11,441 nt of DNA. Origin: a virus. The notes under the pieces are model-generated. The model was given only the letters and a program-made list of their open reading frames with translations, was not told where the DNA came from and did not search any database. The position numbers were made by a program, and so were the translations under genes. How positions within the stretch are numbered: position 1 is the stretch's first letter; each line of letters starts with the position of its first letter. Location: the UHGV virus genome UHGV-0368337, one strand, 5' to 3'. Shown one piece after another: positions 417 through 10,733 of the stretch.

Positions 417-872
417 AATTATCTCCATTTTCACAAATGAACTTTGTTGATGCGGTGCCTGGTGCCTCCAGGTGGCGTTAACCAGTTAACAATTAACGCC
501 GGGTCAGGGGACGATGACTTTCCGTGACATCCTGTCGGTTTAACTGTTCCGCGTGCGCTGAGCCGCATTCACCGCATCACAAAATTCACTTTAAAAAGGG
601 CGGACATCAGCAATCGGCAAACCGATATCCGCCAAGGGTTACACACAGCAATGTTGTTATTCACAACCGGAAGCGCACGGTCGAAGAAATCTAACGACAA
701 TCCTTCTATGGGAAAGAGTCTTCGCCTCGCGCTTTCGTGTAGTACCCTGGCTTTCAGGGTAATGTCTGTTCAGTAAACTGAGAGTGCAGGAACTCCCCCG
801 TGTCCGGCGCACGATCTCCACCTCACCCGTGGAGAACTCCTCAACTACAAACCCCGTAAGGAGAGTGAATTT

Positions 873-2851: not shown

Positions 2852-3559
2852 TTACCAGCTATGTGATGACCAGAACACTCGCCCTATGATTCTTACGTTT
2901 TTGTAGAATTCTTCTCTGTTCATTACTTCATCAGGATACTCTTCGCGGTTTATCGATCTGATAATTACCGATGTTGGCGTGGCTATGAGCGTTTTTACCC
3001 TTAACAAATCAGCTTGGCAAATTGCATATGTTTTACCATCCCTGATGCTCGTATCTCGCGTGTTTACCCCCACCACATCACCATCATGGAGTGTTGGCTC
3101 CATGCTTTGCCCAACAACCCTGACCAACTTTGCCGCTTTTTCTGGAACTCCCATTTTTTTCAGGTAATAGCGCCTAAAAACTAGAGAGAATTCTGCGGAC
3201 TCCTCCAATGCACAACTTCCTCCGCCAGCTGAAAGTGAAATATTTAGAAGGGGGAGCGCAACAAATTCTTCATTATCATTTTGATGATCATCCCAGGCGA
3301 TAGCTTTTAAAGATGATTCCCGAGCATTAGATGGCTCTTCTGCGCTCTGTGGTCTCATTGACCCTATACCAGAGCTTAGCCATTCAGGGCGAACTCTTAA
3401 CGCGTTGGCTAATTCGACCATTTTACGTGATCCGGTTGTTTTACCAGATGACATCTTTTGTATGGCTGGTTGTGATACCCCCACCATGTCTGCAAGTTGT
3501 GCTTGTGACAACCCGGCTGAACTCATGGCGGCATTTAGTCTTTCTGCGAATGTTTTCAT
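2852..3559 (-). CDS. cI: CI-type prophage repressor (N-terminal HTH, C-terminal S24/LexA-like autopeptidase)
   Basis: 235 aa. N-terminal HTH (LSQAQLADMVGVSQPAIQKM), Ala-Gly cleavage region (LSAGGG), catalytic serine motif GQSMEP and downstream lysine (RVK). Divergent from the cro-like gene with operators between them. Confidence 0.9.
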   Translation of the reverse strand: MKTFAERLNAAMSSAGLSQAQLADMVGVSQPAIQKMSSGKTTGSRKMVELANALRVRPEWLSSGIGSMRPQSAEEPSNARESSLKAIAWDDHQNDNEEFVALPLLNISLSAGGGSCALEESAEFSLVFRRYYLKKMGVPEKAAKLVRVVGQSMEPTLHDGDVVGVNTRDTSIRDGKTYAICQADLLRVKTLIATPTSVIIRSINREEYPDEVMNREEFYKNVRIIGRVFWSSHSW

Positions 3560-3570
3560 ACCTGTAATCT

Positions 3571-3636
3571 ATAACCACGGTTATCAAAAGTAAAACAACA
3601 ATTGTTATTGCCCTGGTGTATAACTCATATTATTTT
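3571..3636. promoter_or_regulatory. OR region: three operator palindromes plus candidate PR (and PRM)
   Basis: ATAACcacgGTTAT (3571..3584), ACAACaattGTTAT (3596..3609), ATAACtcatATTAT (3620..3633), centre spacing 24-25 bp. Candidate PR TTGCCC (3608..3613), 17 nt, TATTTT (3631..3636), about 30 nt upstream of cro. PRM hexamers not resolved. Confidence 0.6.
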
Positions 3637-3669
3637 TGGTTATGCTTTATTTGCTGTAGAGGTATGCTC

Positions 3670-3894
3670 ATGAATTTAGTGATTCAGCGAGCCTTGAATA
3701 TTGTTGGCAGTCAAAAACGACTTGCAGCTGATTGCGGCGTATCACAGCCCGCTGTTCATAAATGGTTGCGAGGCGGAAAAGTTTCTCCTGAAAAAGTTTT
3801 CGCTATCGTTAATGCCACCAATGGTCAGGTTAAGGCTTACGAAATTCGCCCGGACTTACCGCACCTGTTTCCTCATCCGAACCAGGCTGAATAA
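3670..3894 (+). CDS. cro: Cro/YdaS-like HTH regulator
   Basis: ORF track 3616..3894; preferred start ATG at 3670 (GAGG 9 nt upstream), alternative 3664. HTH segment QKRLAADCGVSQPAVHKWLRGG. First gene rightward of the operators, divergent from cI. Confidence 0.75.
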   Translation: MNLVIQRALNIVGSQKRLAADCGVSQPAVHKWLRGGKVSPEKVFAIVNATNGQVKAYEIRPDLPHLFPHPNQAE

Positions 3895-3942: not shown

Positions 3943-4010
3943 GCAAACATCAGTGGCAAACCCATTGGGGATTGCCGCTTAACCCCATATCAATATAGGA
4001 AAATTAACAA

Positions 4011-4307
4011 ATGTCACAAACAAGTTACAGCAAACTGTCACAGCGCGATATCGATCGCGCTGAAACGGATTTACTTATCAACCTGTCAGCTCTGACGCAA
4101 AGGGGACTGGCGAAGATGATTGGCTGCCATGAATCGAAGGTCAGTCGTACCGACTGGCGATACATCGCGGCGATTTTATGCGCGTTCCAGATGGCATCTG
4201 ATATCAGTCCGATCAGCCGGGCTTTCCAGCATGCCATTAACGTTCATGCAAATAAAAAACGTCCGGTTGGGGCCGGACGTTCTGAGCAAATCCTGATGAA
4301 CATCTGA
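4011..4307 (+). CDS. cII: CII-family transcriptional activator
   Basis: 98 aa. C-terminal ...NKKRPVGAGRSEQILMNI parallels lambda CII ...NKKRPAATERSEQIQMEF; HTH region in the middle; AGGAAA RBS. Position between cro/nutR and the replication genes is as in lambda. Confidence 0.8.
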   Translation: MSQTSYSKLSQRDIDRAETDLLINLSALTQRGLAKMIGCHESKVSRTDWRYIAAILCAFQMASDISPISRAFQHAINVHANKKRPVGAGRSEQILMNI

Positions 4308-4371
4308 TATTCAGGCAGGGCATGGAGCAATACACGGGAATAATTCTGCCACATCTGGAAGAATTTCGCCA

Positions 4372-4440
4372 GCAACAACACCAACCGCAGCAGCCTGAAG
4401 CCGATTGGGTTAACCCGGGAGATACCGGGACCGTCTGCGG
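4372..4440. repeat. diverged partial copy of internal O-gene segment 5121..5212
   Basis: 4372..4406 matches 5121..5155 with 1 mismatch and 4407..4440 matches 5179..5212 with 2 mismatches. The 23 bp 5156..5178, bounded by a GAAGCCGATT direct repeat, are missing from the upstream copy. Confidence 0.8.
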
Positions 4441-4470
4441 TATGGAGTAAATCTTGTATGCGAGGGGACT

Positions 4471-5553
4471 ATGCGTAATTACGCAACAATTTCACCTCAG
4501 TTCTGGTTAGGCGATACAGGGCGAAAACTAAGGAAGTCTGGTCCGGAAAGTATGGTAGTGGCGTTGTATATGATGACCTCGCCTCATTCCAATATGCTGG
4601 GCCTTTATTACCTGCCTGTTTTGTACATTGCTCACGAAACCGGACTTGATCCTGAAGGGGCTTCTAAGGGGCTTCAAATGGCTTGCGAGGCTGGTTTTTG
4701 CAGCTATGACCATGATTCTGAGGTTGTATGGGTGCATGAAATGGCAGCATGGCAGGTTGGTGAATCGCTGAAACCTGGCGATAACCGTTGTGCTGGGGTA
4801 AGAAATGAATATTCCGCGTTGCTGGAAAATCCTTTTTTATCATCCTTTTATGATAGATATAAGGATGATTTCCACCTGGATGTCAGACGTGAATCATGTC
4901 GGAAAATTGAAGCCCCTTCAGAGCCCCTTTCAAGCCAAGAACAGGAACAGGAACAAGAACAGGAAAGGGATAAAACCCTTCTGGTCCATGGCGAAAAAAT
5001 CGCCACGGACCCACAGGGGGATTTTTGTCCTGTTCTGACTGAACGTCCAGGACCAGCGGGCACGACACCGGAAGCAGATTCCGGGCGTTGTGTGCAGCAG
5101 GTGCTGATCGTCGAACCGGAGCAACAACGCCAACCGCAGCAGCCTGAAGCCGATTCCGCGATGAGCGGGAAGCCGATTGGGTTAACCCGGGCGATGCCGG
5201 GACCGTCTGCGGGACGAGTTGATTATCCTGACGTGTTCGAACGGGTCTGGCGTGAATATCCGCATCGGGCAGGGTCAAACCCGAAGAAATCCGCGTTCAA
5301 TGCCTGGAGGGCCAGATTACGCGAAGGGGTGTCACCGGATGTCGTGCTGGATGGCGTGAGGCGTTACGCAAGATACCTGGAGGCTACCGGGAAAGCGGGA
5401 ACTGAATTTGTTCAGCAGGCATCGACGTTTTTTGGCCCGAACAGGAATTTCGAAAATCCGTGGTCGCTGCCGAAGGCTGGCGCAGTCAGCCTGCGTTGCG
5501 TGAATCACATTTCTGAACCGGACACCGAAATTCCGCCGGGTTTCAGGGGGTAA
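4471..5553 (+). CDS. phage replication initiation protein (O-like/YdaU-like), with QEQEQEQE linker
   Basis: 360 aa; GAGGGG RBS. Immediately upstream of, and stop-start coupled to, the DnaC-like gene. Acidic/Gln-rich interdomain linker; C-terminal F-E-R-V-W-R-E-Y-P...A-F-N-A-W segment. Function inferred mainly from position. Confidence 0.7.
   Translation: MRNYATISPQFWLGDTGRKLRKSGPESMVVALYMMTSPHSNMLGLYYLPVLYIAHETGLDPEGASKGLQMACEAGFCSYDHDSEVVWVHEMAAWQVGESLKPGDNRCAGVRNEYSALLENPFLSSFYDRYKDDFHLDVRRESCRKIEAPSEPLSSQEQEQEQEQERDKTLLVHGEKIATDPQGDFCPVLTERPGPAGTTPEADSGRCVQQVLIVEPEQQRQPQQPEADSAMSGKPIGLTRAMPGPSAGRVDYPDVFERVWREYPHRAGSNPKKSAFNAWRARLREGVSPDVVLDGVRRYARYLEATGKAGTEFVQQASTFFGPNRNFENPWSLPKAGAVSLRCVNHISEPDTEIPPGFRG
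4937..5036. other. candidate replication origin inside the O-like gene
   Basis: Four tandem hexamers GAACAG/GAACAA (4939..4962), A-tract hairpin GGCGAAAAAATCGCC (4990..5004), and TCCTGTTCT (5028..5036), which is the reverse complement of AGAACAGGA in the repeats. Location parallels lambda ori inside O. Confidence 0.3.
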
Positions 5554-5559
5554 TCAGCC

Positions 5560-6300
5560 ATGAAAAACATTTCGACTGGAGGGATTCTTGAACGGGTGCG
5601 CCGTCTGGCACCACCGCACGTGGCAGCACCGTTCCGGACGACCGACGAATGGCGGGAATGGCAACTGGCTGAGGGCCGTAAGCGCAGCGAGGAAATTAAC
5701 CGCCTGAATCATCAGGCGCGGGTTGAAAAAATCCTGAACCGTGCGGGCATCCAGCCGCTTCACAGGAAGTGCTCATTCGGGAACTACCGGGTGCAGAACG
5801 ACGGTCAGCGCCATGCTCTGAGCCAGGCGAAATCCATTGTCGATGAATTGATGACCAGTTATACAAACTTCGTGTTCAGCGGGAATCCGGGAACCGGAAA
5901 AAATCATCTGGCGGCGGCTGTGGGTAATCGTCTGCTGAAGGCCGGTAAATCCGTGATAGTGGTCACCGTGGCGGATGTGATGAGCGCGTTACATGCCAGC
6001 TATGACGACGGACTGTCAGGGGAAAAATTTTTGCGTGAACTGTGCGAAGTGGACCTCCTGGTTCTTGACGAAATTGGCATCCAGCGTGAGACGAAAAACG
6101 AGCAGGTGGTACTGCACCAGATTGTTGACCGCCGGACGGCATCACTGCGCAGTGTCGGGATGCTGACAAACCTGAATCATGCCGCAATGAGCACGCTTCT
6201 TGGTGAGAGGATTATGGACCGGATGACCATGAACGGTGGTCGTTGGGTGAATTTTAACTGGGAGAGCTGGCGGTCAAACGTTGGACGTCAGGGTATGTGA
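5560..6300 (+). CDS. DnaC-like helicase loader / replication protein (P-analog, YdaV-like AAA+ ATPase)
   Basis: 246 aa. Walker A FSGNPGTGKNHLAAAVG and Walker B DLLVLDEIG, characteristic of DnaC/IstB-type loaders. AGGGGG RBS. Confidence 0.9.
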   Translation: MKNISTGGILERVRRLAPPHVAAPFRTTDEWREWQLAEGRKRSEEINRLNHQARVEKILNRAGIQPLHRKCSFGNYRVQNDGQRHALSQAKSIVDELMTSYTNFVFSGNPGTGKNHLAAAVGNRLLKAGKSVIVVTVADVMSALHASYDDGLSGEKFLRELCEVDLLVLDEIGIQRETKNEQVVLHQIVDRRTASLRSVGMLTNLNHAAMSTLLGERIMDRMTMNGGRWVNFNWESWRSNVGRQGM

Positions 6301-8438: not shown

Positions 8439-8499
8439 TGCTGCGGGTGCTTGAGGCTGTCTGCCTCGGGCATGCCACCGTAAGGCAGACAGAGAAAAG

Positions 8500-8565
8500 C
8501 CCCAGTTAACATTACGCGTCCTGCAAGACGCCTAACATTAATCTGAGGCCAATTTCATGCTAGAC
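8500..8565 (-). ncRNA. candidate Sok-like antisense RNA (hypothetical)
   Basis: Minus-strand promoter-like TTGCCT (rc of 8595..8600), 17 nt, TAACCT (rc of 8572..8577). The transcript would be antisense to the SD and start of the upstream in-frame ORF at 8557 and contain hairpin 8515..8530. No clean U-tract terminator. Confidence 0.25.
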
Positions 8566-8613
8566 ACATGTAGGTTAGCCTCTTACGCGCCGAAAGGCAA
8601 GGAGAAGCAGGCT

Positions 8614-8769
8614 ATGAAGCAGCAAAAGGCGATGTTAGTCGCCCTGATCGTCATCTGTATTACCGTCATTGTGACGGCACTGGTAACGAGGAAAGACCTC
8701 TGCGAGGTACGAATCCGAACCGGCCAGACGGAGGTCACTGTCTTCACAGCTTACGAACCTGAGGAGTAA
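8614..8769 (+). CDS. hok: Hok/Gef-family type I toxin (51 aa membrane peptide)
   Basis: MKQQKAMLVALIVICITVIVTALVTRKDLCEVRIRTGQTEVTVFTAYEPEE shows the Hok/Gef signature (TM helix, TRK-LCE-R-G-EVA-F-AYE). AAGGCAAGGAGAAG RBS. ORF track 8557..8769 includes an in-frame upstream start with its own GAGG. Confidence 0.85.
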   Translation: MKQQKAMLVALIVICITVIVTALVTRKDLCEVRIRTGQTEVTVFTAYEPEE

Positions 8770-8837
8770 GAGACCAGGCGAGGGAGAAATCCCTCGCCAC
8801 CTCTGATGTGTCAGGCATCCTCAACGCACCCGCACTT

Positions 8838-8859
8838 AACCCGCTTCGGCGGGTTTTTT
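8838..8859 (+). terminator. rho-independent terminator of the hok transcript
   Basis: AACCCGC-TTCG-GCGGGTT followed by TTTT, preceded by the strong 3-prime hairpin GGCGAGGGA-GAAA-TCCCTCGCC (8777..8798). Confidence 0.75.
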
Positions 8860-10458: not shown

Positions 10459-10488
10459 TTGACAACGTCGCGTGTTCGGGGCTATATT
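10459..10488 (+). promoter_or_regulatory. near-consensus sigma-70 promoter (TTGACA, 18 nt, TATATT)
   Basis: TTGACA at 10459..10464 and TATATT at 10483..10488. Divergent from the higB-like start; faces the structured region and the ORF6N-like gene. Confidence 0.5.
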
Positions 10489-10494
10489 CCTCAC

Positions 10495-10569
10495 GCGCCA
10501 GCAAAACCTGGCGTCGGGATTAGCACCCCGGATATCGAAACGGTGCATAACCGCGCTGGCGGTTTTTTT
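10495..10569 (+). ncRNA. candidate small RNA or transcriptional attenuator (about 75 nt)
   Basis: Starts about 7 nt after the promoter -10. Hairpins CGCCAG-CAAAAC-CTGGCG and GCACC...GGTGC, then terminator-like CCGC-GCTG-GCGG plus T7 (10551..10569). About 165 nt of further structured sequence precedes the next gene. Confidence 0.3.
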
Positions 10570-10733
10570 ATGCGCTAAGCACAGTCACATTCGCGATTTA
10601 TGGCGGGCTGTGTGGGGGAGCCGAAAGGCTCGCCGGATGTTTCGACCGGTAGTGCTAACCCCGCACAGTTCGCCACCACGATGATTAGCACCTGACGGTG
10701 GCGAGGTAAAAATTATCGAAACGCGAGGTCATT

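What the first reader, a model, noticed from the sequence alone, without database searches (positions are those of the whole stretch)
4322..4450. Partial diverged copy of an internal O-gene segment placed just upstream of the O-like gene
A 69-bp stretch (4372..4440) repeats 5121..5212 from inside the replication gene with 3 mismatches and a 23-bp deletion bounded by a GAAGCCGATT direct repeat. It lies in a 42-codon ORF (4322..4450, MEQYTGIILPHLEEFRQQQHQPQQPEADWVNPGDTGTVCGME) between cII and the O-like gene, where lambda has almost no spacer. Likely a recombination scar marking a mosaic junction, but it could also supply a repeated site for recombination or regulation.
Basis: seen in the sequence. 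Interest (0 to 1): 0.45.

Follow-up and report, generated by a model that had tools for sequence, protein, structure and literature searches.

The report
Variable leftover copy of replication-gene linker
The stretch is a real, non-random partial copy of the replication gene's inter-domain linker. It sits in a copy-number-variable repeat between cII and the replication gene of one E. coli/Shigella prophage lineage, and is most likely a recombination leftover that still causes deletions, not a functional element.

Summary
Window 4371-4440 repeats 5120-5212 with 3 mismatches and a 23-bp gap bounded by GAAGCCGATT. This is far beyond chance, and half of it is ordinary-complexity sequence.

- **Repeat array.** The copy is one allele of a 90-bp-period tandem array with 1, 2 or 3 units. 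Two units is the commonest form; the window has the contracted 1-unit form. The array occurs only in the shallow 'Eru4' replication-module lineage of E. coli/Shigella (pro)phages, such as Shigella phage 75/02 Stx.
- **Absent from relatives.** Sister lineages with about 70% identical rep genes lack it.
- **Origin.** The copy derives from the rep linker. One unit still reads in the ancestral rep frame seen in outgroups.
- **The 42-aa ORF** (phrog_2751) has length and frameshift alleles and no homologues elsewhere, so it is probably not a protein gene.
- **Recombination between copies.** Natural recombinants between the upstream and internal copies exist in at least two independent cases, and they delete the rep N-terminal domain.
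- **Not a current mosaic boundary.** Present-day mosaic breakpoints lie in cII and in the rep linker, not at the spacer. The left flank does keep a weak lambda-like cII-O junction vestige.
- **No support for an iteron or regulatory role.** The family's candidate iterons are AAGCCCCTT clusters inside rep.

Overall this is ordinary and of low interest.

The parts
4011..4307 (+). cII gene. Its 3' half and everything downstream to the end of rep travel together as one module in the Eru4 lineage.
   Evidence: Pfam Phage_CII E = 6.5e-26. The identity profile against phages of other immunity types rises to 97-100% from about 4030-4070. This cII allele is found with at least 80% coverage in 81 E. coli genomes, close to the 78 that carry this rep N-terminal region.
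4256..4283 (-). Intrinsic-terminator hairpin of an oop-like antisense RNA inside the 3' end of cII. It is context for the finding, not part of the repeat.
   Evidence: Terminator scan: 11-pair stem plus T-run. It aligns with the lambda oop terminator region. The fold of 4345-4245(-) has z = -4.0.
4308..4370 (+). Left flank of the copy. It is unique to this lineage and is a weak vestige of a lambda-type cII-O junction: lambda's O start ATG aligns with CTG at 4346-4348, and lambda's pO -10 CATAAT aligns with CAGAAT at 4348-4343 on the minus strand.
   Evidence: Local alignment with lambda 38654 onwards scores 13, against 7.4 +/- 1.3 in shuffles; 9 of 2000 shuffles reach it. See also the MAFFT alignment. 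In 14 metagenome contigs the flank is always followed by the linker unit.
4322..4450 (+). 42-codon ORF (phrog_2751; WP_000438872.1 in RefSeq), probably not a functional gene.
   Evidence: ORF list; phrog_2751 E = 1e-31. Alleles of 42, 72, 88 and 102 aa exist, plus frameshifted forms of 46, 51, 58 and 76 aa. All are from E. coli and only the first 28 residues are constant. There is no homologue in phage records beyond six Eru4 phage records.
4371..4440 (+). Upstream copy: a single unit of the 90-bp-period array, derived from the rep linker.
   Evidence: Two-unit, three-unit and 23-bp-retaining alleles appear in relatives.
4397..4406 (+). GAAGCCGATT, the short direct repeat at which the 23-bp segment is missing from the upstream copy.
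   Evidence: The 23-bp segment is present at this position in L089.
4441..4470 (+). Right flank, containing the stop codon of the small ORF (4448-4450) and the Shine-Dalgarno-like GAGGGGA of rep. It has no similarity to what follows the internal copy.
   Evidence: Sequence and alignment. There is no homology to the region upstream of rep in the roughly 70% identical relatives.
4471..5553 (+). Replication initiator/organiser gene of the Eru4 type. It has an N-terminal domain with candidate iterons, a repetitive linker, and a C-terminal domain shared with Tritos-type rep genes.
   Evidence: phrog_1701 E = 4e-151; no Pfam hit; 98-99% nt identity to Shigella phage 75/02 Stx, POCJ13 and PhiR5_2; Eru4 type as defined in PMC8951638.
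5120..5212 (+). Internal (source-like) copy in the rep linker, coding EQQRQPQQPEADSAMSGKPIGLTRAMPGPSAG. It includes GAAGCCGATT at 5146-5155 and 5169-5178. Relative to outgroup rep genes it carries a compensated frameshift.
   Evidence: Outgroups L006, L014, L016 and L017 have 24 nt (not 23) between the repeats, lack the extra G of CCCGGG, and read EADRVVPENTGQPVG. That is the frame kept by the upstream ORF.
5560..6300 (+). DnaC/IstB-like helicase loader, the partner gene of the replication module (context).
   Evidence: Pfam IstB_IS21 E = 5.7e-20.

Best explanation
The stretch is a non-functional recombination product. A piece of the repetitive inter-domain linker of the replication gene was copied to just upstream of that gene. 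The copy lies next to the remains of an older lambda-type cII-O junction, and it has since behaved as a 90-bp minisatellite.

**Shown**
- The array exists in 1-, 2- and 3-unit forms. The window carries the 1-unit form, which matches a crossover between units 1 and 2 of the common 2-unit form. That it arose by contraction is inferred.
- The 23-bp difference from the internal copy is a polymorphic indel at the 10-bp direct repeat GAAGCCGATT.
- Because the upstream and internal copies are direct repeats 749-772 bp apart, recombination between them deletes the rep N-terminal domain together with the candidate origin. This leaves replication-defective prophages.
- The ORF across the array changes length and frame among alleles.

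**Inferred**
- The original duplication happened once, in the ancestor of the E. coli/Shigella Eru4 lineage. It occurred either by tandem duplication of SD + N-domain + linker followed by loss of the first N-domain copy, or by insertion of a new N-domain cassette into the linker of an older rep gene.
- The array has no function of its own. Its only effect is to serve as a substrate for homologous or slipped recombination.
For: 1. **Real repeat of ordinary complexity**.
2. **Copy-number and indel polymorphism among near-identical prophages.** One unit is seen in the window, L003, L009, L133, L136, L137 and L142. Two units are seen in L001, L002, L004, L008 and L010-L013, in about 28 of 33 IMG/VR contigs and in 8 of 14 metagenome contigs. 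Three units are seen in L090-L092. L089 is a two-unit form with the 23-bp segment retained. P0002 has extra 16-nt sub-repeats.
3. **At least two crossover points among the 1-unit forms**, consistent with independent 2-to-1 contractions: the window type has CCCGGGAG and L138 has CCCGGAG.
4. **Two independent upstream-by-internal deletions.** In L005 the crossover lies in block 2 and the fused frame terminates. In L134 the crossover lies in block 1 and gives an in-frame small-ORF::rep C-terminal fusion.
5. **Lineage restriction.** Sister rep genes at 68-71% amino-acid identity (L014-L021, L023) and Tritos-type genes have the linker sequence only inside rep, with no upstream copy. The small ORF has no homologue outside E. 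coli/Shigella Eru4 elements.
6. **Derivation from the linker.** The upstream ORF frame (EADWVNPEIPGPSV / EADWVNPGDTGTVCG) corresponds to the outgroup rep frame EADRVVPENTGQPVG.
7. **No protein-level constraint.** Frameshifted alleles P0004 (43 contigs) and P0008 (22 contigs) change everything after residue 28-47.
8. **No signal of a cis-function.** No promoter or terminator was predicted in the unit. The mRNA fold is not significant (z = -1.15). The unit contains no AAGCCCCTT iteron.
Against: - At least one unit is retained in nearly every genome that has this rep gene: 78 genomes have the rep N-terminal region and 79-81 have the spacer. No zero-unit allele was seen.
- The spacer has only 1 variable site in 163 among 11 loci. 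This is no more variable than the coding flanks (repC 1/338, repN 9/460). In so shallow a lineage that fits either recency or constraint.
- Most alleles keep an open frame, because the period is 90 bp (30 codons), and there is an AGG 6 nt upstream of the ATG.
- The origin scenario (duplication plus deletion, or cassette insertion) is reconstructed, not observed. No intermediate was found.
Confidence: 0.65

Rival explanations
1. The upstream units are accessory binding sites for the replication initiator (extra iterons, an autoregulatory operator or a handcuffing site). GAAGCCGATT would be a degenerate version of the family iteron.
For: - GAAGCCNNTT occurs 6 times, all within 4397-5178, against 0.66 expected in the whole window.
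- GAAGCCGATT matches the conserved GAAGCCCCTT motif at 8 of 10 positions.
- In more distant relatives (L024, L025, L033, L036, L049, L053, L061) true AAGCCCCTT copies lie 13-45 nt upstream of the rep start, so an upstream site is normal in this family.
- At least one unit is retained in nearly all Eru4 elements.
Against: - The pattern was chosen after seeing the sequences, and three of its six hits are the duplicated segment itself.
- AGCCCCTT is enriched 268-fold in -60..+520 of rep across 80 loci, but never occurs in the unit.
- GAAGCCGAT repeats at 24/72-nt spacing also occur in the linker of Tritos-type rep genes. Those genes have a different N-terminal domain and their own GTCACG iterons. 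The motif therefore goes with the shared linker and C-terminal module, not with the DNA-binding domain.
- Copy number varies from 1 to 3.
- The 70-nt identity of about 96% looks like a recent duplication rather than a conserved short site.
- The sister lineage at about 70% identity has no upstream copy.
Confidence: 0.1
2. The ORF 4322-4450 (phrog_2751) encodes a real small protein. One possibility is a mimic of the Rep linker that modulates Rep stability or its contact with the DnaC-like loader. Another is an upstream ORF whose translation keeps the cII-rep transcript covered by ribosomes.
For: - It has an ATG with an AGG 6 nt upstream.
- The ORF stays open in the 42-, 72- and 102-aa alleles.
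- The first 28 residues are nearly invariant.
- It is annotated as a CDS in RefSeq and phage records, and it forms a PHROG family.
- In two of three frames the ORF ends within 20 nt before, or 8 nt after, the rep start, which would allow translational coupling (sequence).
Against: - Frameshifted and truncated alleles are frequent (P0004, P0008, P0009, P0010).
- There is no homologue outside one shallow lineage among 5.8 billion proteins or 50,697 phage records.
- The sequence is a copy of low-complexity linker DNA.
- Keeping the frame at a 90-bp period is arithmetic, not evidence of selection.
- It has no Pfam or NCBIfam match.
Confidence: 0.1
3. The segment belongs to the control region of an oop-like antisense RNA. 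The repeat would supply the -35 or upstream part of a leftward promoter whose transcript ends at the terminator inside cII.
For: - A strong minus-strand terminator lies at 4283-4256 and aligns with the lambda oop terminator.
- Lambda's pO -10 (CATAAT) aligns with CAGAAT at 4348-4343.
- The aligned -35 position (TGGCGA, 4371-4366) touches the first base of the repeat (my own reading of the lambda sequence).
Against: - The promoter scan found no sigma-70-like site there. The candidate matches only 7 of 12 consensus positions.
- At most one base of the repeat would be involved, so this explains the left flank and not the repeat.
- Rfam has no match at the locus.
Confidence: 0.08
4. The single-unit form in the window is an assembly collapse of a tandem repeat, so the observed structure is an artefact.
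For: A 90-bp tandem repeat can be collapsed by short-read assemblers. Two units is the majority form.
Against: - The identical 1-unit allele occurs in several complete RefSeq genomes (G1/2, G8, UCPROB-002, JNE120442).
- It also occurs in independent IMG/VR and metagenome contigs.
- The upstream-versus-internal repeat exists in every allele regardless of unit number.
Confidence: 0.03

Closest known systems
Eru4-type replication module of Stx phages (representative Shigella phage 75/02 Stx; PMC8951638)
   Same: The window's cII-spacer-rep-DnaC-like block is 98-99% identical to 75/02 Stx, POCJ13, PhiR5_2 and phiSTEC1589-Stx1c. The gene order is the same: cI, cro, cII, small ORF, rep, AAA+ loader, DUF1627 protein.
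   Different: Those phages carry the 2-unit (72-aa ORF) allele and the window carries the 1-unit allele. The paper defines the type by its proteins and does not mention any repeat: the word 'repeat' occurs 0 times in it.
Lambda O gene with ori iterons in its inter-domain linker
   Same: The position after cII is the same. The initiator gene has two domains joined by a repetitive linker, and repeated DNA lies inside the gene (lambda iterons at 39034-39118). The cII 3' end, oop terminator and spacer show residual homology to lambda.
   Different: The rep protein is not a Phage_rep_O member. The duplicated unit is a 70-90-nt near-identical copy lying outside the gene, not an array of roughly 19-bp binding sites. 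The candidate iterons of this family (AAGCCCCTT) lie elsewhere.
Direct-repeat-mediated deletions and minisatellite (VNTR) variation in bacterial and prophage DNA (established knowledge)
   Same: It is a tandem array with unit gain and loss, slippage at a 10-bp direct repeat, and deletion of the DNA between two dispersed direct repeats.
   Different: Nothing essential differs. The particular feature here is that the dispersed repeats bracket the DNA-binding domain and candidate origin of the replication gene, so the deletion inactivates prophage replication.
Tritos-type 'phage replisome organiser' rep genes (L006, L007)
   Same: They share the linker and C-terminal domain from window 5072 onwards at about 82% nt identity. 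This includes the QQPEADS / GAAGCCGAT repeats.
   Different: They have a different N-terminal domain with its own GTCACG iterons. They have no upstream copy of the linker. Their linker reads in the ancestral frame.

Membership tests
Eru4-type phage replication module | The first two genes of the replication region, read rightward (away from cI), match those of Shigella phage 75/02 Stx: a rep gene of unknown family plus an AAA+ 'helicase'/DnaC-like gene. | tested here: met
   98.0% nt identity over cII to the end of rep with NC_029120.1. The loader gene has Pfam IstB_IS21. Type definition from PMC8951638.
Lambda O / ori-lambda | The initiator carries the Phage_rep_O N-terminal domain. | tested here: not met
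   No Pfam family matches the 360-aa protein at E <= 0.01. The best PHROG is phrog_1701, 'DnaD-like helicase loader'.
Lambda O / ori-lambda | The repeated element is an array of short initiator-binding iterons with regular spacing next to an AT-rich stretch. | tested here: not met
   The finding's repeat is a two-copy segment of 70/93 nt. One copy lies outside the gene and no AT-rich neighbour is present: GC is 0.57-0.60 at 4360-4449. The iteron-like clusters of this family are AAGCCCCTT at 4655-4675 and 4909-4929.
Variable-number tandem repeat (minisatellite) | Head-to-tail units whose number differs among otherwise near-identical genomes. | tested here: met
   1, 2 and 3 units of 90 bp in the same context. 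The flanks are identical.
Protein-coding gene (phrog_2751) | Sequence match to the family profile. | tested here: met
   E = 1.2e-31 for the 42-aa form and 4.1e-55 for the 72-aa form.
Protein-coding gene (phrog_2751) | The reading frame and length are conserved among alleles, and homologues exist beyond one shallow lineage. | tested here: not met
   Alleles of 42-102 aa plus four frameshifted forms exist. All hits are E. coli/Shigella Eru4 elements.
oop-type antisense RNA of lambdoid phages | A leftward intrinsic terminator inside the 3' end of cII. | tested here: met
   Hairpin at 4283-4256(-) plus T-run. It aligns with lambda. Fold z = -4.0.
oop-type antisense RNA of lambdoid phages | A leftward promoter just right of the cII stop. 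| tested here: inconclusive
   No site passes the consensus scan. The lambda-aligned hexamers are TGGCGA-17-CAGAAT, matching 7 of 12 positions. Rfam gave no match at the locus.

The most novel reading that the evidence does not exclude
The two linker copies are direct repeats that bracket the N-terminal DNA-binding domain together with its candidate origin (4441-5119). They could make this origin-specificity unit a portable cassette. Homologous recombination would excise it, as seen in L005 and L134. The same recombination could insert it into any phage whose rep gene shares the linker and C-terminal module, such as the Tritos type, and that insertion would leave exactly this kind of upstream linker copy. 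A by-product would be in-frame N-domain-less Rep proteins, as in L134, which might interfere with replication of co-resident phages.
Probability: 0.07. Interest if true: 0.55.

Novelty: new member of a known kind. Interest (0 to 1): 0.2.

Why it matters
The significance is modest.
- It shows that a widely annotated 'hypothetical protein' (phrog_2751; WP_000438870/872) in Eru4-type Stx and non-Stx prophages, including a prophage of the O104:H4 outbreak clone, is most likely a repeat artefact and not a gene.
- It provides a small length-polymorphic marker (163, 253, 276 or 343 bp) for typing these prophages.
- It documents a simple route by which such prophages lose their replication initiator, namely deletion between direct repeats.
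- It locates the rep linker as a recombination-prone module boundary.
- It does not reveal a new mechanism.

Tried and rejected
- **Rfam scan of the whole window at E <= 1:** nothing at 4300-4470 or 5120-5212.
- **Promoter/terminator scan:** no promoter in the unit; the only relevant site is the oop-like terminator in cII.
- **RNA fold of the spacer mRNA:** z = -1.15, not significant.
- **CII-box search (TTGC-N6-TTGC):** fewer hits than chance. The one at 4327-4340(-) has a mismatch and carries no weight.
- **Iteron hypothesis for GAAGCCGATT:** rejected after comparison with relatives.
- **Search for a longer ancestral gene containing MEQYTGIILPHLEEF:** none in phage records, none in 5.8 billion proteins, and none in 80 related loci. 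In 14 metagenome contigs the left flank is always followed by the linker unit.
- **Exact-pattern scan of GTDB species representatives for the unit:** only three single chance hits in unrelated MAGs.
- **Search with the rep C-terminal half for other N-terminal partners:** returned mostly partial proteins of the two types already known.
- **Literature searches:** the iteron sequence returned only unrelated primer-type matches. A search for POCJ13/Eru4/PhiR5 found no description of the repeat.
- **PDB sequence search with rep:** only a weak match of the last 25 residues to the DnaT tail.
- **Site-diversity comparison of spacer versus flanks:** uninformative, because the lineage is too shallow.

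Full report
**1. The observation**

The sequence, the repeat finder, a pairwise alignment and a direct comparison agree.
- Window 4371-4406 equals 5120-5155 with one mismatch (4380/5129).
- Window 4397-4440 equals 5169-5212 with two mismatches (4420/5192 and 4424/5196).
- The internal copy has 23 extra bases between two GAAGCCGATT repeats (5146-5155 and 5169-5178). The upstream copy has one such repeat (4397-4406).
- The longest exact shared run is 26 nt, against a mean of 13 and a maximum of 17 in 100 shuffles.
- The 42-codon ORF 4322-4450 is there.

**2. Context**

The window carries these genes:
- an S24/HTH repressor (2852-3559, minus strand) and a Cro-like gene (3616-3894);
- cII (4011-4307);
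- the small ORF;
- a 360-aa replication gene (4471-5553) with no Pfam match;
- an IstB/DnaC-like loader (5560-6300);
- DUF1627, DUF977 and DUF551 genes.

The replication gene falls in phrog_1701, 'DnaD-like helicase loader'. Only its last 25 residues weakly resemble the DnaT tail. It is therefore 'O-like' by position only.

The block is 98-99% identical to Shigella phages 75/02 Stx and POCJ13 and to Escherichia phages PhiR5_2 and phiSTEC1589-Stx1c. This makes it the 'Eru4' replication type of Stx phages (PMC8951638). Among 5,426 complete E. coli genomes, 78 have this rep N-terminal region, 79 match the spacer and 81 have this cII 3' end plus left flank. They include a non-Stx prophage of O104:H4 outbreak strains. 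Lambda has 32 nt between cII and O, against 163 nt here.

**3. What the copy is part of**

Aligning the cII-rep spacer of relatives shows that most carry two tandem units with a 90-bp period and a 72-aa ORF. The window and E. coli G1/2 carry one unit. Other alleles exist:
- three units (102 aa; L090-L092);
- two units with the 23-bp segment still present in unit 1 (L089);
- extra copies of a 16-nt sub-repeat, TGTGCAGTCACACCAA (P0002);
- several frameshifted ORFs (P0004, P0008, P0010).

Counts by collection are as follows.

| Collection | 2 units | 1 unit | Other |
|---|---|---|---|
| IMG/VR (my tally from match spacing) | about 28 contigs | 5 contigs | none |
| Metagenome contigs, n = 14 | 8 | 5 | 1 deletion recombinant (L134) |

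One of the 1-unit metagenome contigs (L138) has a different crossover point from the window's allele. If both derive from the 2-unit form, contraction has happened at least twice. The array is therefore a minisatellite, and the window shows its shortest allele.

**4. Where it came from**

Outgroup rep genes were compared: the Tritos type (L006) and the roughly 70% identical sister lineage (L014, L016, L017).
- They read ...QQPEADSAIQREADRVVPENTGQPVGRVDYP, with 24 nt between the two GAAGCCGAT repeats.
- The window's rep has 23 nt there plus an extra G further on (CCCGGG). This is a compensated frameshift over about 15 codons.
- The small ORF reads the copied DNA in the outgroup (ancestral) frame: EADWVNPEIPGPSV in unit 1 and EADWVNPGDTGTVCG in the window.

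The upstream units are therefore copies of rep-linker DNA.

The copy is lineage-specific.
- None of the 68-71% identical sister rep genes (L014-L021, L023) or the Tritos-type loci has an upstream copy. They hold only the first 36 nt, inside rep, at 92% identity.
- The small ORF has no relative outside Eru4 elements, either in phage records or in 5.8 billion proteins.
- A pattern scan of species-representative genomes found only chance hits.

The left flank (4322-4364) aligns weakly but above chance with lambda's cII-O spacer and first O codons. The score is 13 against 7.4 +/- 1.3, reached by 9 of 2000 shuffles (alignment). This stretch directly follows the cII 3' end and the oop-type terminator, which are clearly homologous to lambda.

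My inference is that an older lambda-type replication gene started here and has been lost, and that the linker copy now abuts its remains. Two origins fit:
- tandem duplication of the Shine-Dalgarno site, N-domain and linker, followed by loss of the first N-domain copy; or
- insertion of a new N-domain cassette into the linker of an older rep gene, followed by loss of the old N-domain.

No intermediate was found.

**5. What it does**

The only effects for which there is direct evidence are recombinational.
- E. coli SW071611 (L005) joins the upstream copy to the internal copy within the shared GAAGCCGATTGGGTTAACCCGGG. It lacks the first 649 nt of rep, and the remnant is annotated as a pseudogene. 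A sister isolate shows the same match pattern.
- Metagenome contig L134 is a second, independent deletion with its crossover in block 1. It gives an in-frame fusion of the small ORF to the rep linker and C-terminal domain.

Tests for a cis-function were negative.
- No promoter or terminator was predicted in the unit.
- There is no significant mRNA structure and no Rfam match.
- There is no meaningful CII box.

The iteron idea was tested and rejected.
- Across 80 related loci, AGCCCCTT is 268-fold enriched in -60..+520 of rep. It forms two clusters at gene nt about 185/196 and 441/452 with an 11-bp period. The second cluster is flipped in orientation in some lineages.
- Tritos-type rep genes, which have a different N-terminal domain, carry GTCACG repeats in two clusters 260 bp apart instead. 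They nevertheless share the GAAGCCGAT linker repeats.
- The GAAGCCGATT motif therefore goes with the shared linker and C-terminal module, not with the DNA-binding domain. The duplicated unit contains none of the family iterons.

**6. Mosaic junction?**

Eru4 phages with unrelated cI/cro regions become 97-100% identical to the window from about 4030-4070, and they stay so through the spacer and rep. Among 11 loci the spacer has 1 variable site in 163, against 22/297 in cII, 9/460 in repN and 1/338 in repC.

The spacer is therefore not a present-day exchange point. The present-day boundaries are the 5' part of cII, the rep linker near 5072 and the region after rep.

**7. Verdict**

The feature is real and derived by recombination. 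It is best read as a non-functional, copy-number-variable leftover of the rep linker that continues to promote unit changes and rep-inactivating deletions (confidence about 0.65).

The rivals are each around 0.1 or less: an accessory initiator site, a real micro-protein or upstream ORF, and part of an oop promoter. Assembly collapse is excluded by the presence of the allele in several complete genomes.

The kind of feature is well known. This instance appears undescribed in the searchable literature. Interest is low.

The more interesting by-product is the candidate in-gene origin of this rep family: AAGCCCCTT clusters flanking an AT-rich trough at 4810-4899.

Noticed in passing
window 4655-4675 (-), 4909-4929 (+), AT-rich 4810-4899; also L008-L087: Candidate replication origin inside the rep gene. 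There are two clusters of the 11-bp-period motif (G/A)AAGCCCCTT about 255 bp apart, flanking an AT-rich trough (GC 0.32-0.37) that contains a 13-nt inverted repeat (4839-4869). Across 80 diverged relatives, AGCCCCTT is 268-fold enriched in -60..+520 of rep. The second cluster is flipped in orientation in some lineages, and some relatives have a third cluster 13-45 nt upstream of the start codon.
   Followed up: partly
L006 2037-2075 and 2297-2345 (Escherichia phage Tritos rep gene): A rep gene with a different N-terminal domain but the same linker and C-terminal domain has its own GTCACG repeats (about 10-bp period) in two clusters 260 bp apart. This parallels the architecture above and suggests that the N-domain and its sites form one exchangeable module.
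   Followed up: partly
window 5156-5215: Compensated frameshift in the rep linker relative to outgroup rep genes: 23 instead of 24 nt between the GAAGCCGAT repeats, plus an extra G in CCCGGG. As a result about 15 codons read MSGKPIGLTRAMPGPSAG instead of IQREADRVVPENTGQPVG.
   Followed up: yes
window 4245-4345 (-), terminator 4283-4256: An oop-like antisense RNA terminator inside the 3' end of cII, homologous to lambda's. The fold has z = -4.0. The promoter is not confirmed.
   Followed up: partly
window 3992-4033 (-): A pRE-like leftward promoter (TTGTGA-16-TATATT), next to a one-mismatch CII box (TTGCTGTAACTTGT) at the cII start. This is the lambda arrangement.
   Followed up: no
L134 2867-3214 (metagenome contig ERZ791741 NODE-9481): Recombination between upstream unit 2 and the internal copy gives an in-frame fusion of the small ORF to the rep linker and C-terminal domain, that is, an N-domain-less Rep. 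The contig has low coverage.
   Followed up: partly
window 4936-4964: A GAACAG/GAACAA hexanucleotide tract coding an (EQ)n run at the start of the rep linker. It is length-variable among Eru4 relatives: rep lengths run from 358 to 366 aa.
   Followed up: no
window 8445-8769: A hok/sok-type toxin-antitoxin locus: an Rfam sok match at 8445-8619 (116.9 bits, E = 1e-26) overlapping a 70-aa ORF at 8557-8769.
   Followed up: no
window 10482-10680: Above-threshold Rfam matches to C4 antisense RNA (10596-10680), its a1/b1 target (10482-10534) and isrK (10495-10569). This is a P1/P7-style antisense immunity element of the kind that precedes an antirepressor gene. A second, sub-threshold isrK-like match lies at 8778-8859.
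   Followed up: no
window 598-647 (-): A DicF-like match below Rfam's gathering score (29.2 against 48 bits), next to a sub-threshold STnc100 match at 402-596.
   Followed up: no
window 5476-5553 (rep residues 336-360): The C-terminal tail CVNHISEPDTEIPPGFRG is invariant between the Eru4-type and Tritos-type rep proteins. It weakly matches the C-terminal tail of E. coli DnaT (PDB 2ru8, 6aep, 9zbt; E about 0.01), which explains the 'primosomal protein I' annotations.
   Followed up: no
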